Shown here piece by piece: positions 36,001-42,000 of a stretch of DNA of 64,000 nucleotides. Source of the stretch: Candidatus Latescibacterota bacterium (GTDB lineage: Bacteria > Latescibacterota > UBA2968 > UBA8231). The DNA lies in the NCBI GenBank assembly GCA_965197905.1, contig CBDAOB010000001.1:96001-160000 (forward strand). The letters run 5' to 3'. Position 1 is the stretch's first letter. Each line of letters starts with the position of its first letter. The position numbers are program-made.

Positions 36001-39000
36001 ACACTCCGCGATAGCGGCGGTAGAGCGGGGAGCCGAAACTCTCCTCCTGACTCTTCTGTTTGACCTTCATGAAGGTAACGCACAACATCGGTATCATTGT
36101 CAGCGAAAGCACCCATGAGCTCAGCAGGGCGATGCTCACCACTTGAAAGAGCGGGGCTGTGTACTCCCCGACCGTCGATTCCGCCAGGTAGATCGGCAAA
36201 AAGGCCGCTGCGGTCGTGAGGGAAGAGGTGAGCAAAGGGATCCGCAGCTCCCGCGCCGATTCCAGCGCCGCGTCCAGCGCCGCGGTGCCGCGAGCGATTC
36301 CCACCATGATCGATTCAGACATCACGATGGCGTTGTCCACCAGGAGTCCCAGGGCGATGATCAGAGCCGTGCGGGACATCTGATCGAGGCCGATCTCGAA
36401 CTGATCCATGATCAACAGGCTCAAGACCATGGTCATCGGTATAAGGGTTGAAACGACGAGACCAGTGCGCACGCCGAGACTCAGCAGCATCACCACCATG
36501 ACGATGGCCACCGCTTGCAGCAGGTTGCTGACGAAATCGTCCACCTTCTTGGTGACGATGTCGGGCTGGAAGGCGACGAAATCGAACTCCAATCCTATCG
36601 GATACCGTTCCTGGAGACGTTTTACGGTTGCCCGCACCTCGGTCCCCAGGTGAATCAGATTACCGCCCTCCCGCAGCGATATCCCCAGGGCCAGCGCCTC
36701 TTGGCCGTTGGCACGGACCCGGCGAGTCGGCGGATCGATATATCCGCGGTAGACGCGGGCGATATCCTCGAGATAGACCAGCTCCGAACCGCCGGGTAGA
36801 TTGATGATGGTGCGGCGGAGGTCCTCCACCGACTCGAAGTTTCCAGAAGGCTCTAAGACAATGCGCTCAAACCCGGTGTTTATGTCGCCCCCCGGCAACA
36901 GGATGTTGCGACTCTGCAGGATGTTGCGCAGGTGAACCGCTGAGATCCCCATCTCCGCCAGCCGGGCGTTGTTGTACTCGACGAAGATCCGCTCGTCCTG
37001 GGTTCCGTGAATCTCTACCTTCGCCACATCCTTGATCTTGAGTAGCTCGTTGCGAACCTGGTCGGCAACCTCCTTCAACTCCATGTAGCTGTAGCCCTCG
37101 CCCGTGAGGGTGGCGATGGTGCCGAAGACATCGCCGAACTCGTCATTGACCAGCGGCCCGATCACGCCATCCGGGAGTTCGCGGCTGGCGCGTTCGACCT
37201 TGCGCCGTAGATCGTCCCAAATCGGACGCAGCTGGCGCTCGCTCTCCTGAATATTTACGAAGACTTCCGAAACGCCGGTGCGCGAGGTGCTGTTGACGAA
37301 GTCCAGCTGGGGAATCTCCTCGATCGCCTTCTCCAGCTTGTCGCTCACCAGGAGCTCAACGCGCTCGGGGCTGGCCCCGGGGAAGAAGGTGAGCACCTGG
37401 GCGGTGCGAATGATGAATCCCGGATCTTCATTGCGCGGCATCTGGTCGTAGACCTGGATCCCGGCAAAAAGAATTACTATCAGCGCAACCGCGGTGACGC
37501 GGTTGTTCTCTATGGCGGCACGGGTGACGTTCATCTCAATGGTCTCCCAGCAGTCTCACCCTCTGTCCGTCGACGATGCGACTGATGCCCGCGGTCACGA
37601 CCCGGTCCCCGTCGCTGATCCCTTCGATCACCTCGAAGTTCTCGCCCATGAAGTCGTCCGTGCGCACCTTCAGCGCGCGTCGGTGGACTTGACCAAATCC
37701 CTCGCCTGCCGGCACGACGACGTAGGCAAAATGACCGTTGCGGTCCTCGCCCACCGATACCAGCGGAACGTAGATATGCTCGCGCTTTCCGGTGGCGCCG
37801 AAGCTGAGCCCCACCTCCGCCGCCATGCCCGGCCTGCAGTCGGGATCGGAGTGATCCAACCGCACCGTAACCGGGAAGGTAGTAGCGGTACCGGTCGAAG
37901 TGACGCCGACCTCGGTTACGTGACCGGTGAACTCCCGATCCTTCAGCGCATCGAACTTTACGGTGGTTGGCTGTCCTTCGCGCACCTGAGCGATCAACAG
38001 CTCGGGTACGGCGATCTCAACCTCCAGCTGGGAGCCGGAAGTCAGCAACACCGCCGTCTGCCCGGGAGAGACGTTCTCGTTCGCCTCGATCCGCACGGCG
38101 GCAATGGCACCGTCAACCGGCGCCGCCAAGCGTGCATATCCTAGCTGAGATTGAGACAGCTCCAGCTTCTTGCCCACCGATTTGACCGTTTCGTCCGCCG
38201 ATACCGCCCCGGCGCGGGCAGCGTCCAGATCGTTGCGCGAGGCGTTGTTGTTTTCGTAGAGCGCCCGCACCCGCGCGTAGTTCGAGCGGGCGTTCATGGC
38301 CTGCGCTTTGGCGCTGGCCAGACTCGCCTCGGCATCCTCGACCTGCAAAGCGGTAGTCGCCGTCGTCCAGAGCCGCGAGGAGCTGTCCCTTTTTCACCTT
38401 GTCCCCCACTTCGACGGCGACACGTTCGACGGTCCCGGCTACCTTGAAGCTGAGCTTCGATTCCAGCGCGGCGCGAGCGGCGCCGGAGAAGGTGCGGGTC
38501 CTTCCGCCACCGGTTGCGAACACCTGCTCGAAACGAACCGGACGAATTACCGGTTCGGGAGGCGCCATCTCCTCCGCGCACCCTGGCAAGAATGGGGCGA
38601 CCGACACAACTATATAGAACGGGATCTTCATGAGCTAACCTCCAGCTTGCGCTGTTTTTATAACCGGGGCTTCCGAAACCTAATCTGGCTGCGCTGATTC
38701 GGAGCGTTCGAAAAATTCTTCTACCGCGGCAAACCATTCGTTCCGTTTCTCCGCGTTGGCGAAGAAGTAGAACTTGCCTATGGCACGCTCAACCTCCATT
38801 AGATCCTTCAGAAAGTCATGCACGGCGTTCGCGGCAGCTTCCTGGGCCAAAAGCGCAGCGTTCTGGGCGTCCAGGAGATCGAGCACCGAAACCACACCGC
38901 GGCCGTACGCATCTTCAACCAACTCCAGATTCCGCGCCGCGGCCACCGCCCCGTCCTCGCTGAGTCCGATGGCAGCATAGGAAGCGCCGGCCAGGTGCAG

Positions 39001-42000
39001 GGCCGAGCGAATTCTTTGCTCTATCCGTTCGGCAGCCGCCTCTCGTTCCAGCTGTAATCGCTCGAGATCGATGCGAGCTTTGCTCGCGGCCGAGGATTTT
39101 GCCCCGCCGCTGTAGATCGGCAGCGCCAGATTCAGACCTAGGGTCTAGTTGGTTTCATCAAGCGGCGCGTCGGACTGCTTGCCGCCGTCGACGAATTCGT
39201 TGGTGATTTCTCCCCGTGCTGCCACCGTGGGCGACCAGTAGGCACGACGCGCCGAGGTGAGTGCCCGTTGTTGCGCCGCAATCGCTGCGTCGAGCCGCTT
39301 CAGCTCCGGTGCCGAGGCGAGTCCATCCTGTACCATGAAGCCGCGGAAGATCTTGAAATTCTGTTGATTTTCGATGAGCCGGATAAACCGTTGTTCGTGG
39401 GTGATCAGCTCTTCGTGAAAGAGTCCGGTCTCTTCGGTGGCAAACGACTCCTCGAGAGGTCGGTGCAACAGTCTGTTGAGCTCGATCTCCGCCAGGTTGC
39501 GACGGGAGTTGGCGGAGATCACACGTTGCCGGCTGGTGGCGATCTGACTCTCCCAGCGGTACACCTCGGAGGACCCAGAGAAACCGATGGTCTCCCGCAC
39601 CCTGGCCAGCTCGAGGTTGGAGCGGGTCAATTCCAGGTTCTCCTTTTGGACCCGCTCAAAGGTTTTCGCCCGCAGCAGGTCGAGGTAGGCACGTGCCGCC
39701 GCCTGAATGATATCCAGGCGCACCTGTTTCAGCTCCAGATCGCGCGCCTTCTGCAGGTTCCTCTGAATAGAGACGTTCGCCAGCGCCGCTTCAGAATACA
39801 CGAGCTGGGAAACGCTACTGCTGCCCGTTGCGTTCCGCTCCGGTTGCGGAGCGGTTGCAATATCGGCGTCCAGCGCCACTGCCGTCGCCTCGATGCCAAG
39901 CTGCGGTAGCAGCGCCGATCGAGCTGTGCGCACATCCTCGCTACCACTGCGAACGCGCAGTCTTCGAACCGCCAGATCGAGGTTCGTCTCGAGCGCTTCC
40001 CGAACGGCGCTGGTGAGGGACCAGTGCCTTTCCACCTGCCGGCGGACGGTGTTGATCAGCTCCGCCTCGGTAACGACACTCCAGGGCGGATAGACCCCGA
40101 TGGCACGTACCGTCGCCATGTTTATGGTCAGCTTTTCATGTCGAGAAAACGCCACTGGCAGTGTGCCCGCATCTTCGCCCAGGAGGATACTCTGTATATT
40201 CAGCGCGATACGTCGCCCCAGCCGCAGGATCTCGTTGGTGGGATATGCCCCGGCCAGGATGCCCCGCTCTACCAGGCCGGTGCTGAGAGCTGAAAAGCTG
40301 GGCAGGCGGCGCTCGATCAGTCCTTGCACCAGGATCTCGACCTCAACGTCTGCAAGGTTGAGCGGCAACCCGATAAATACCCCATCCACGTCGGCTGGCA
40401 ACGCCTCCAGTACCGAAGCGGCGGTCCCTTTGGCAGGCACCGGCACCACCTCGACACCGATAGATCTTCCGGCCTCGACGAAATGACTTTGCAACGGGGG
40501 AATCGCCTCCAGAATGGACCCGCTGGCGAGCAGAGCGACCTTGTTGAACGGTGCGATTTCGCGGAAAAGGCCGAGGGTGTTCGGAATGCTGGCGGGAAAG
40601 GTGATATAACTCAGGTTCCTGACGCCACTGGCCTGTCCGGCCAGAGGAATGCCCTGCAGCTTGGGATCCATGATCAACGGCGCGATGACCGGCTTTGGAA
40701 GCGATGAACGATTTGCCGCCAGGTGGGAAGAGATCGGTCCGCCTGACAGCACCAGGTCTACCTGTGGATCCCGCAGCAGCTGATCCAACGCTCGTTCGAT
40801 CCCAGGTAGCGTGTCATCAGCCACCAGGATCTTGTCGGCAGGAAACGATACGGCAAACTCCCCCGCCATGAGTTGGACGACCTCATCCAGCACCAGCTCG
40901 CGAAGCTCGGCGCGGCTGGCCGGTGTATTAGGGCCATCTACCACCAGGCCGATGCGGATCTCCGACACTGCATTGGCGCTCGAGACGATAACGCACATGA
41001 GCAGCACCGCGATGAGTGTGACCTTTGAAGCGAATCGACGGTTCATGGGTTGATGGCTCCTTGACCGGCCGGTTGAAATCCCTGCTGCAACATCGTGGAG
41101 GTGACCGTCTCAATCGCAGCACCGCCACCGACGTAGATGCCCCACAGAACAAGCATTGCGATAAGAGCTCTTCGTTGCGAGACATCGCCCATTACCGACA
41201 TGCCGGTTGCTATTACCAGAACCTGCCAGACGTCGAAAAAATTGATGTCGGTCAATGCGCGGCCGGCAAAGGTGTGAACCATGTTTTCAGGGACGAACCA
41301 GCCCATGCCCGTTTGCACGATCGGGGACTGCTGGATGTTTTTCAGAATCGCGCTGGCGATCCACTCCAGTCCCATCACCATCGAGGCATAGCCCTTGATC
41401 ACCAGAGCTTGGCGAAACGATACATCCACCTCGAACAGGGAGCGTAGCATCACCTGCAAGATGAACGCGACCACCACCAGCGAGATGAAGGTGCCCAGCG
41501 GAATCATGATCCAGCCCTGGGTTTTGAGCATCTCCATGCTGGCCAGATAATGCTCCCGTTGTTGCTCATGCATCTGTTGCAGCTGTCCCTGCAGCACGGG
41601 CGAGTCCAGGTCGTCCATCAACGGAAGACTCAGCGCGTGCGACATCAAACCCATCAAACTCACAACGACAGCAGGTAGAAACCAGTCGAGCCAGCCCTCT
41701 CTTCCAGCGACCGCCTCGAAGCTGGATCTGGGGGCGTAATACACACGCTTGAGGCGTTCCTGTATCGTCAGCGCTTCACCTGAGAAAACCGATCCCATTT
41801 CTTGTTCCAGCAATGTTCACTCCCTCGTGAAACGATGAATATATCAATAATTTTCGACCAGAAAACCCGATGGTCGCTTCACTCTGGCTCTCGAGCAGTT
41901 GCTTATTAGATTGAGACCCTGGATCGCAACCGACGGGTGCTGCGTCTAACATAGGTCGACTCGGCGCAAGATGGTCCGTTTCAGACGGAGATCGAGATGA

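What a model noticed while it worked through the whole genome (the two positions that open the first line are those of the whole stretch)
38680..41046. TolC-family outer-membrane channel carrying a complete periplasmic binding-protein domain at its N-terminus
The outer-membrane factor of the RND efflux operon C1:129075-137798 (g00118+g00119) is a 788-codon frame in which a full two-lobe solute-binding domain (Pfam ABC_sub_bind, res ~28-330) precedes a complete TolC/OprM channel (res ~340-788). A ligand-binding domain built into a TolC-type duct has not been described; it suggests ligand-gated or ligand-delivering efflux. Here the frame is cut by one in-frame TAG at codon 634, where homologues have a nearly invariant Trp, so the copy is a recent nonsense mutant or holds a base error.
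Evidence so far: pfam.tsv: g00119 ABC_sub_bind (150-328) + OEP (346-527); g00118 OEP. Reading of C1:134680-137046(-): 788 codons, one stop at 634; the 94%-identical P0679 has W there. AlphaFold model of P0679, 22 rows: pLDDT 84.1. Foldseek: C-part = TolC, ST50, OprM, CusC (7ng9 TM 0.81); N-part = ABC_sub_bind SBPs with aromatic amino acids (3lft TM 0.79, 6hni, 3lkv). Search with res 25-335: 228 proteins at E<=0.001; about 100 of 120 listed are 760-850 aa with the OEP row, named TolC by sources from Geoalkalibacter, Gemmatimonadales, Acidobacteriota, Nitrospirota, Thermodesulfobacteriota, Planctomycetota. Neighbours HlyD_3, ACR_tran, POTRA-less Omp85. No paper held 4 of 5 search terms.
(Added by a program. 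Inside this text positions count along the whole contig: contig position 96,001 is position 1 of the stretch shown here. "Call 12" and the like, gene names such as g00115 and contig names such as C1 are that model's own, and its searches are not shown. The text may have been shortened before it was handed on; [...] marks where a part breaks off. The agent that wrote the report below was given it as the finding of a first reader that could run no searches.)

Follow-up and report, generated by a model that had tools for sequence, protein, structure and literature searches.

The report
TolC exit duct with fused binding-protein domain
The outer-membrane exit duct of this efflux pump carries a whole periplasmic binding-protein-like domain at its front end, a fusion shared by many uncultured bacteria and absent from the papers searched, though the copy here is interrupted, probably by an assembly error.

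Summary
Window 38680-41046(-) is a 788-codon frame with one in-frame TAG at codon 634. A signal peptide and a two-lobe ABC_sub_bind-like domain (res ~28-331) join a complete TolC-type duct (344-788) through a 12-residue linker.

The fusion is a real family. 190 of 199 candidate stretches in species genomes encode it. 527 cluster representatives match the N-domain at E<=1e-30. Only two neighbours are conserved, a lipoprotein adaptor and a MexK/TriC-like RND pump.

Seven literature searches found no description.

The "ligand-gated or ligand-delivering" reading is not supported. The five amino-acid-contacting residues of characterised relatives are replaced. No ABC importer is linked. The attachment point, at the duct's equatorial belt, is far from any substrate entry.

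My best guess, at low confidence, is an accessory module mounted on the outside of the duct.

The TAG and a +1 frameshift in the adaptor gene sit among about four other single-base frameshifts in 45 kb, so assembly error is likely.

The parts
38680..41046 (-). Outer-membrane factor gene: 788 codons plus stop, interrupted by TAG at codon 634
   Evidence: 93.3% identical (735 of 788) to the intact P0001.
40969..41046 (-). Signal peptide (res 1-26, ...SSANA|VSE). It looks like a signal-peptidase-I site, with no convincing lipobox.
   Evidence: Read by eye; no predictor was run. pLDDT is low over res 1-30 and res 3-20 are helical.
40054..40965 (-). N-terminal two-lobe ABC_sub_bind-like (class I SBP fold) domain, res ~28-331
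   Evidence: Pfam PF04392 30.1 bits at res 150-328. The profile of 41 N-domains hits 3lkv at E 8.2e-9 and 3lft at 5.5e-7. Foldseek target-normalised TM is 0.81 to 3lft_B. Alternating strand/helix pattern at res 29-331.
40018..40053 (-). Linker, res 332-343
   Evidence: no regular helix or strand, and pLDDT dips to 78. Least conserved stretch.
38683..40017 (-). Complete TolC-type duct, res 344-788. It has the N-terminal helix 344-377, strands 382-391, 404-417, 607-621 and 632-641, long helices 419-487 and 649-715, and a conserved C-terminal helix 765-787.
   Evidence: Target-normalised TM is 0.80-0.83 to TolC of Klebsiella and E. coli and to ST50.
39145..39147 (-). In-frame TAG at codon 634. 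The nearest relative has TGG, and W fills this column in 93 of 106 family members. It lies just before strand 632-641.
37536..38631 (-). Periplasmic adaptor (membrane fusion protein) gene with a lipoprotein signal (..FLPGC). It is broken by one extra T (TT to TTT) at window ~38347-38349.
   Evidence: The intact 365-aa orthologue in L001 scores 241 bits on TIGR01730.
34463..37534 (-). RND transporter, 1023 aa, MexK/TriC-like
   Evidence: ACR_tran 560.8 bits. MexK at E 1.9e-183 and TriC (6vej) at 1.2e-172. Found in 60 of 80 related loci.
41043..41813 (-). Yip1/YknW-family membrane protein gene. Its stop overlaps the OMF start (ATGA). It is a lineage-specific neighbour, not part of the conserved module.
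   Evidence: A relative is present in 1 of 80 loci.
33075..34466 (-). Omp85-superfamily barrel with no POTRA hit. Its start overlaps the RND stop. Lineage-specific neighbour.
   Evidence: Present in 3 of 80 loci.

Best explanation
The gene encodes a non-lipidated TolC-type outer-membrane exit duct. Its mature N-terminus is a complete, diverged ABC_sub_bind-type 'Venus-flytrap' domain.

Shown:
- The fusion is one reading frame.
- It is conserved across many bacterial phyla.
- It travels as a three-gene module with a lipoprotein adaptor and a MexK/TriC-like RND transporter.

Inferred:
- The domain is periplasmic. It is tied by only 12 residues to the first helix of the duct, which starts at the equatorial belt, so three copies would sit on the outside of the trimeric duct at mid-height.
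- The rise of pTM to 0.82 with a deeper alignment suggests a fixed, co-evolved packing rather than a free tether.
- The domain has lost the residues its characterised relatives use to hold an aromatic amino acid. It keeps its own invariant residues in the cleft and hinge loops (D37-G38-P39, G103, S107, S140-G141, N144, Y147, F251-S252, G262, R278-R279).

Most likely it is an accessory module of the duct. It would stabilise, orient or anchor the duct by binding an envelope component or an unknown small molecule. This would be comparable in position to the lipid anchor of OprM or to the lipoprotein YbjP on E. coli TolC. It probably does not feed substrates into the channel.

Local copy: the TAG (and the +1 T in the adaptor gene) is either an assembly error, which I favour at about 60:40, or a very recent mutation.

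Confidence by part: the fusion and the module about 0.95; periplasmic mounting at the equator about 0.7; the accessory or anchoring role about 0.35. The overall figure of 0.4 is set by the weakest, mechanistic part.
For: Frame and domains.

Family size:
- 221 hits; of the 120 listed, 106 are 760-850 aa.
- 190 of 199 candidate stretches in species genomes encode a relative.
- 1957, 1232 and 527 representatives at E<=1e-3, 1e-10 and 1e-30. 114 of the best 150 are >=700 aa. 25 of the 35 short ones examined run on into the TolC part.
- 28 of 121 sampled genomes of the phylum carry the domain. In 24 of those 28 the open frame is 768-904 aa. The other four are this genome (654 aa, cut by the TAG), one of 494 aa and two short pieces of 152 and 169 aa.

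Module:
- The adaptor lies directly downstream in 58 of 68 loci with >=1.5 kb of downstream sequence.
- Clustering 906 ORFs of 80 loci finds the fusion in 78 loci, the RND in 60 and the adaptor in 59. The next cluster is in 5 loci.

Constraint: N-domain conservation (mean top-residue frequency 0.57) matches the TolC part (0.60).

Structure: pLDDT 91.8, pTM 0.82, linker 332-343, first helix 344-377. Foldseek.

Loss of canonical contacts: with PMC9382623 section 13 and PMC6816091 passages.

No importer: this gene is the only PF04392 match in the genome.

Equatorial location of the TolC N-terminus, the proposed peptidoglycan contact there, and YbjP sitting between equator and membrane: PMC13082787 passages and PMC8277102 passages.

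Weak hint of wall association: two family members (P0114, P0166) add a bacterial SH3 domain in front.

Lesions:
- TGG to TAG, and TT to TTT, against the 89.5%-identical relative.
- Four other clean single-base frameshifts in 14,061 aligned codons at window 1994, 2312, 8528 and 25884.
- A second OEP gene is split elsewhere in the genome.
- Synonymous:non-synonymous codon differences are 34:10 after the stop against 67:18 and 60:19 before it.
Against: - No coordinates or error map of the model were available to me. Where the domain sits (toward the membrane or toward the tip), and whether its conserved residues face the cleft or the duct, is not shown.
- Invariant polar residues cluster in loops that line the cleft in solved relatives. 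That fits a real ligand site as well as it fits a structural role.
- The mapping of canonical contacts rests on a profile alignment at about 17-21% identity that leaves the first ~50 residues of the domain unaligned.
- The Pfam hit is marginal and partial (30.1 against 25.9 bits). It is missing in several members, for example P0046.
- The SH3 variants are 2 of the roughly 270 proteins seen.
- The TAG is a substitution, while the other lesions in the stretch are indels, so it may be a true mutation. Two lesions in adjacent genes of one operon would also fit real decay.
Confidence: 0.4

Rival explanations
1. Ligand-sensing or ligand-gated duct. The flytrap domain binds a small molecule, and its closure is transmitted through the equatorial belt to the helices that open the duct or recruit the adaptor.
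For: - The SBP fold is intact, and the model resembles closed more than open forms (6hni 0.75 against 6hnj 0.63 target-normalised TM).
- Family-invariant polar residues lie in cleft and hinge loops.
- The domain is as conserved as the duct.
- Equatorial-domain mutations affect TolC function (PMC8277102 passages).
Against: - The canonical amino-acid contacts are all replaced, mostly by bulky hydrophobic residues that may fill the pocket.
- The gate of TolC is at the periplasmic tip, about 50 Å from the equator. This is inferred from the 35-residue helix 492-526.
- No ligand, and no linked regulator or importer.
Confidence: 0.2
2. Substrate-capturing domain. It collects pump substrates in the periplasm and hands them to the pump.
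For: SBPs normally deliver ligands to transporters. The pocket positions are hydrophobic, and MexK/TriC-type pumps export hydrophobic compounds such as triclosan (PMC13450314, abstract in the listing).
Against: A 12-residue linker ties the domain to the outside of a sealed barrel at mid-height. RND entry sites lie in the inner-membrane subunit, far below. No known route leads through the TolC wall (inference from TolC structures; PMC8277102 passages).
Confidence: 0.07
3. In this genome the operon is truly dead. A nonsense mutation in the duct gene and a frameshift in the adaptor gene are real, and the finding is a pseudogene of the family.
For: Two lesions in adjacent genes. The TAG is a transition, unlike the indels elsewhere. 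The genome has eight other OEP loci that could substitute.
Against: - About one frameshift per 9 kb occurs in unrelated genes of the same 45 kb. The close relative's assembly has one too, in FliM.
- There is no relaxation of selection after the stop (34:10).
- The RND gene and the other neighbours are intact.
Confidence: 0.35
4. Annotation artefact: two adjacent genes (an SBP and a TolC) read as one.
For: None beyond the unusual architecture.
Against: Continuous open frames of 768-904 aa in 24 of the 28 genomes with the domain, and ~800-aa proteins in most hits. There is no second signal peptide, and the linker is short and modelled.
Confidence: 0.01

Closest known systems
E. coli / Klebsiella TolC and Salmonella ST50 (non-lipidated TolC-type outer-membrane factors; PDB 1ek9, 7ng8/7ng9, 5bun)
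   Same: - Two OEP repeats, four strands and the long-helix pattern per protomer.
- Target-normalised TM 0.80-0.83; profile E about 1e-23.
- Signal-peptidase-I type signal, with no lipid anchor (read by eye).
- Partner of an adaptor and an RND pump.
   Different: - Carries a ~300-residue SBP-fold domain in front of the first helix.
- Has a conserved C-terminal helix (765-787).
- Below NCBIfam's TIGR01844 cut-off (121.7 against 225 bits).
- Encoded in the pump operon, as the first gene of the module.
Aromatic-amino-acid SBPs of the ABC_sub_bind family: S. pneumoniae SP1069 (3lft, Trp), V. cholerae VC_1101 (3lkv, Phe), C. difficile CD0873 (6hni, Tyr), S. suis TrpX
   Same: Class I two-lobe fold (target-normalised TM 0.75-0.81). 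Shared anchor motifs such as N144 (the N of the N-V-T-G turn), D127-P128, P249-x-F251 and V259-E-R-G262.
   Different: - Fused to a duct, not a free or lipid-anchored importer subunit.
- No ABC permease or ATPase genes nearby.
- The five conserved ligand contacts are replaced.
- The first ~50 residues do not align.
- NCBIfam TrpX scores 25 bits against a cut-off of 390.
YbjP-TolC (lipoprotein partner bound between the equatorial domain and the membrane; PMC13082787) and the N-terminal lipid anchor of OprM/CusC
   Same: An extra periplasmic element attached at the equatorial region on the outside of the duct, possibly stabilising its orientation. This is a working analogy only.
   Different: - Covalently fused instead of a separate protein.
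- SBP fold, not DUF3828.
- No lipid modification.
- The position relative to membrane or peptidoglycan is not known here.
P. aeruginosa MexJK and TriABC pumps (MexK; TriC 6vej)
   Same: The RND subunit is closest to MexK and TriC (E 1.9e-183 and 1.2e-172). The adaptor is a standard RND_mfp lipoprotein.
   Different: The Pseudomonas operons lack their own duct and borrow OprM or OpmH (recalled, and PMC13450314 abstract). Here the module brings its own, modified duct.

Membership tests
TolC / outer-membrane factor (Pfam OEP PF02321) | Two OEP repeats above the gathering score | tested here: met
   76.5 bits (res 346-527) and 57.8 bits (3' piece); cut-off 22.
TolC / outer-membrane factor (Pfam OEP PF02321) | TolC protomer fold (4 strands, two long and four half-length helices, equatorial segments) | tested here: met
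   secondary structure. target-normalised TM 0.80-0.83 to 7ng8, 5bun and 1ek9.
TolC / outer-membrane factor (Pfam OEP PF02321) | Encoded with, and used by, a periplasmic adaptor and an inner-membrane transporter | tested here: met
   (gene order only; assembly not tested).
TolC / outer-membrane factor (Pfam OEP PF02321) | Uninterrupted reading frame in this genome | tested here: not met
   TAG at codon 634. Probably an artefact or a recent change.
NCBIfam TIGR01844 type_I_sec_TolC subfamily | Score above the curated cut-off (225.15 bits) | tested here: not met
   121.7 bits for P0001.
TolC / outer-membrane factor | Homotrimeric channel in the outer membrane | not testable with these tools
ABC_sub_bind (PF04392), class I solute-binding proteins | Pfam gathering score | tested here: met
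   30.1 against 25.9 bits, covering only res 150-328. Several members miss it (P0046, P0202, P0216).
ABC_sub_bind (PF04392), class I solute-binding proteins | Two alpha/beta lobes joined by a hinge, like 3lft, 3lkv and 6hni | tested here: met
   target-normalised TM 0.81, 0.79 and 0.75; profile E 8.2e-9 and 5.5e-7.
ABC_sub_bind (PF04392), class I solute-binding proteins | Conserved contacts to the amino and carboxyl groups of the amino-acid ligand (TrpX T108, A127, T129, D152, N233) | tested here: not met
   Equivalents are 104 V38/P26/L18, 124 F43/V22/I17, 126 I53/L30/V10, 150 L32/F29/S13 and 230 Q44/R23/H18, each out of 106 members.
ABC_sub_bind (PF04392), class I solute-binding proteins | Works with an ABC importer encoded nearby | tested here: not met
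   No such cluster in 80 loci. No other PF04392 match in the genome.
ABC_sub_bind (PF04392), class I solute-binding proteins | Binds a small-molecule ligand in the cleft | not testable with these tools
   Needs thermal shift, ITC or a structure.
YbjP-like accessory partner of TolC (DUF3828, PF12883) | Sequence membership in DUF3828 | tested here: not met
   No such Pfam hit at E<=0.01. The comparison is by position only.
HAE1-type RND pump, MexK/TriC branch (partner gene) | Full-length ACR_tran, with closest solved relatives MexK and TriC | tested here: met
   (560.8 bits, positions 3-1020 of 1021)..

The most novel reading that the evidence does not exclude
The flytrap domain is a working receptor built into the exit duct. 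Binding of an envelope-derived or environmental molecule at a cleft of new chemistry would control opening of the duct or its engagement with the adaptor. This would be the first ligand-regulated outer-membrane factor. It would form a self-contained sensor-pump module, with no conserved regulator gene beside it in the 80 loci examined, that has spread across more than ten phyla.
Probability: 0.15. Interest if true: 0.85.

Novelty: new variant of a known kind. Interest (0 to 1): 0.6.

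Why it matters
TolC-type ducts are usually treated as passive, bare exit tubes. Accessory elements on their outer surface (lipid anchors, and YbjP reported in 2026) are only now being recognised.

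This family has several useful properties:
- A whole binding-protein fold is welded to the equatorial belt.
- It is conserved as strongly as the duct itself.
- It is always paired with one RND pump lineage.
- It occurs in Gemmatimonadota, Acidobacteriota, Nitrospirota, Desulfobacterota, Latescibacterota and other groups.

It therefore offers a natural system for asking what the equatorial region of the duct does, whether anchoring, assembly or regulation.

It also shows that routine annotation hides the architecture. Most members are named only 'TolC family protein', and only 28 of the 120 listed carry the PF04392 label.

For this particular genome the practical lesson is that single-base lesions are frequent. 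They should not be read as pseudogenes without the reads.

Tried and rejected
- Complex prediction of the N-domain (alignment A3) against the TolC part (A2, res 336-788) gave no verdict (score 0.00). It is not used either way.
- I looked for model coordinates in the script box, to map conserved residues onto cleft or interface. None are provided, so the placement of the domain remains inferred from pTM and linker length.
- I looked for conserved regulators, ABC importer genes or other partners around 80 loci. Nothing beyond the adaptor and the RND was found; the next best cluster is in 5 loci.
- The Yip1, Omp85-like, 632-aa and TLC/MFS-like neighbours of the window are lineage-specific, present in 1, 3, 3 and 7 of 80 loci.
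- I checked whether a second in-frame stop in the window (gene at 19377-20216) was another nonsense lesion. It is only a natural stop seven codons earlier than in the relative.
- The ESM Atlas feature search of the N-domain returned only ABC_sub_bind SBP clusters at 0.87-0.88, below the 0.9 level. It adds nothing new.
- I did not run the 'shorter' length class of the word-indexed search. The statement that free-standing close relatives are not seen rests on the best 150 of 1,957 HMMER hits. Ten short hits there could be truncated or free-standing.
- Literature: seven searches found no description. Only the first 300,000 characters of the Chem Rev review are held. Subscription journals are not covered.

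Full report
**Observation.** Window 38680-41046 on the minus strand reads as 788 codons with a single internal stop at codon 634. That stop is TAG at 39145-39147. Pfam finds ABC_sub_bind at res 150-328 (30.1 bits, cut-off 25.9) and OEP at 346-527 in the 5' piece. It finds a second OEP repeat in the 3' piece. The N-terminus looks like a signal-peptidase-I signal (..SSANA|VSE). This was read by eye and no predictor was run.

The gene lies in a minus-strand operon:
- a Yip1/YknW-like membrane protein, whose stop overlaps the start of the duct gene;
- the duct gene;
- a lipoprotein adaptor;
- an ACR_tran RND transporter of 1023 aa;
- an Omp85-like barrel with no POTRA hit.

**The fusion is real and widespread.**
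- A search with res 25-335 returned 221 proteins at E<=0.001 among 8000 scored candidates. Of the 120 listed, 106 are 760-850 aa and 118 carry PF02321. Only 28 carry PF04392 in the precomputed column.
- An index-free HMMER search of 1.84 billion representatives gave 1957, 1232 and 527 hits at E<=1e-3, 1e-10 and 1e-30. Of the best 150, 114 are at least 700 aa.
- Of the 35 short hits examined, 25 align on into the TolC part, so they are truncated fusions. Ten end within or at the end of the domain and cannot be classified.
- In one genome per species, 190 of 199 pattern-matched stretches encode a relative. The titles of the 80 loci kept name Latescibacterota, Gemmatimonadota, Acidobacteriota, Nitrospirota, Nitrospinota, Desulfobacterota, Calditrichota, Eisenbacteria, Krumholzibacteriota, Entotheonella, Polyangiaceae and some Gammaproteobacteria.
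- Within the window's own phylum, 28 of 121 sampled genomes (15 of 44 genera) have the domain. In 24 of the 28 the open frame is 768-904 aa. The others are this genome (654 aa), one of 494 aa and two short pieces.

**Context.** Only two neighbours are conserved.
- The adaptor starts directly downstream in 58 of 68 loci with enough sequence.
- Clustering 906 ORFs from the 80 loci finds the fusion in 78 loci, the RND in 60 and the adaptor in 59. The next cluster is in 5 loci.
- A few loci have the adaptor and RND upstream or divergent. About nine with ample flank have neither.
- The RND subunit is closest to MexK (E 1.9e-183) and TriC (6vej, 1.2e-172).
- No regulator and no ABC importer is linked. 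This gene is the only PF04392 match in the 6.69-Mb genome.

**Structure.** AlphaFold2 on the intact 93%-identical P0001 with 106 aligned family members gave pLDDT 91.8 and pTM 0.82.
- The model has an alternating strand/helix domain at res 29-331.
- A linker follows at 332-343, where pLDDT dips to 78.
- The TolC protomer follows. It has a first helix at 344-377, four strands, long helices at 419-487 and 649-715, and a conserved C-terminal helix at 765-787.
- Foldseek matches the C part to TolC-type ducts (target-normalised TM 0.80-0.83).
- Foldseek matches the N part to 3lft_B (0.81), 3lkv (0.79) and closed CD0873 6hni (0.75). Open 6hnj scores 0.63.
- A two-domain chain with undefined mutual orientation would score a pTM near the share of its larger domain, about 0.55. 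I therefore read 0.82 as a confidently predicted packing. No coordinates or error map were available, so the orientation is unknown.
- In TolC the chain starts at the equatorial belt, and the first helix runs from there to the membrane. YbjP binds in that very zone, and the belt is proposed to touch peptidoglycan (PMC13082787 passages; PMC8277102 passages).

**What the domain can and cannot be.** It is as conserved as the duct: mean top-residue frequency is 0.57 against 0.60. The characterised relatives bind Trp, Tyr or Phe (PMC10443332 Table 1 passage; PMC6816091 passages). They use conserved contacts named for S. suis TrpX as T108, A127, T129, D152 and N233 (PMC9382623 section 13).

I mapped these contacts through the profile alignments to 3lkv and 3lft. 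Shared motifs anchor the mapping. The equivalent positions in 106 family members are:
- 104: V38, P26, L18
- 124: F43, V22, I17
- 126: I53, L30, V10
- 150: L32, F29, S13
- 230: Q44, R23, H18

The two small residues that leave room for the side chain in the SBPs correspond to W/L/Y/F and F/L/W. The amino-acid site is therefore gone, and may be filled by hydrophobic side chains.

The family also has its own invariants in loops that line the cleft and hinge in the solved relatives. These are D37-G38-P39, G103, S107, S140-G141, N144, Y147, F251-S252, G262 and R278-R279. They could form a new ligand site, or be structural or interface residues. I cannot tell which.

Two members (P0114, P0166) add a bacterial SH3 domain in front. 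One (P0186) has a kinase domain in front, which may be a gene-call merge.

**Mechanism.** Shown: a periplasmic SBP-fold domain is covalently attached at the equatorial start of a TolC-type duct that serves a MexK/TriC-like RND pump.

Inferred:
- Three copies sit on the outside of the trimer at mid-height.
- A 12-residue linker and a sealed barrel make hand-over of substrates into the channel implausible.
- The gate at the periplasmic tip is about 50 Å away, so direct gating would need long-range transmission.

I therefore favour an accessory role in stabilising, orienting or anchoring the duct, at about 0.35. A sensor role follows at about 0.2 and substrate capture at about 0.07. The rest is unknown.

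**The local lesions.** The operon is 89.5% identical in DNA to a Latescibacterota chromosome (L001/G001).
- Against that relative the window has TGG to TAG in the duct gene, and one extra T (TT to TTT) that frameshifts the adaptor gene.
- Across the 45 kb of synteny (14,061 aligned codons), four further genes carry clean single-base frameshifts in the window. They are at 1994, 2312, 8528 and 25884. Two of them fall right after GGATC.
- The relative has one frameshift in FliM.
- Another OEP gene is split elsewhere in the genome.
- Codon differences after the TAG are 34 synonymous to 10 non-synonymous. Before it they are 67:18 and 60:19. The 3' part has therefore been under selection until very recently.
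- I read both lesions as probable long-read assembly errors, at about 60:40. The TAG is a substitution and could be real.

**Novelty.** Seven full-text searches found no description of an SBP-TolC fusion. The passages I read in the 2021 Chem Rev review (first 300,000 characters only), the 2022 PLoS Biol TolC phylogeny paper and the 2026 YbjP paper do not mention one either. Automatic names in one source do list both domains (P0054, P0080).

Other notes there describe TolC ducts fused to SPOR, OmpA or TonB-type modules. I take those only as a lead for the anchoring idea.

**Verdict.** This is a new variant of a known kind. It is real and interesting as a family, but its function is open. This copy is a poor exemplar because it is interrupted.

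Noticed in passing
window 1994, 2312, 8528, 25884 (and 38347): Single-base frameshifts relative to the 87-89%-identical relative split otherwise conserved genes. Two deletions fall directly after GGATC. This suggests systematic long-read errors, possibly linked to a methylation motif.
   Followed up: partly
G000:C4:190647-191820: A second OEP (TolC-family) gene in the genome is split into frames of 313 and 196 aa.
   Followed up: no
window 41043-41813 (-): A Yip1-domain protein matches NCBIfam YknW_fam below its cut-off (53 against 110 bits). It is translationally coupled (ATGA overlap) to the duct gene. Apart from the nearest relative it is not found beside the fusion (1 of 80 loci).
   Followed up: partly
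window 31381-33279 (-) and 33075-34466 (-): A 632-aa protein with no Pfam or NCBIfam match and an Omp85-like barrel without POTRA follow the RND gene. Both are conserved only in 3 of 80 loci (Latescibacterota).
   Followed up: partly
window 29967-31370 (-): A 467-aa transporter with weak TLC (ATP/ADP exchanger) and MFS_1 matches lies at the end of the same gene string.
   Followed up: no
proteins P0114, P0166, P0186 (relatives, not in the window): Rare longer variants of the fusion exist. Two have a bacterial SH3 domain in front of the SBP-like domain. One, of 1190 aa, has a Ser/Thr kinase domain in front; this is topologically odd and may be a merged gene call.
   Followed up: partly
window 45179-46162 (-) and 44221-45210 (-): The FliG-like ORF has FliG_N at res 94-189 and FliG_M, but no FliG_C above threshold. 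The neighbouring FliM is intact here but frameshifted in the relative G001.
   Followed up: no
family-wide, P0001 res 521-532: The most conserved, family-specific motif of the TolC part ([LV]NR[LVI]L[HN]RP[LQ]E) lies where helix 492-526 enters the equatorial segment. It is a candidate docking site for the N-domain.
   Followed up: no
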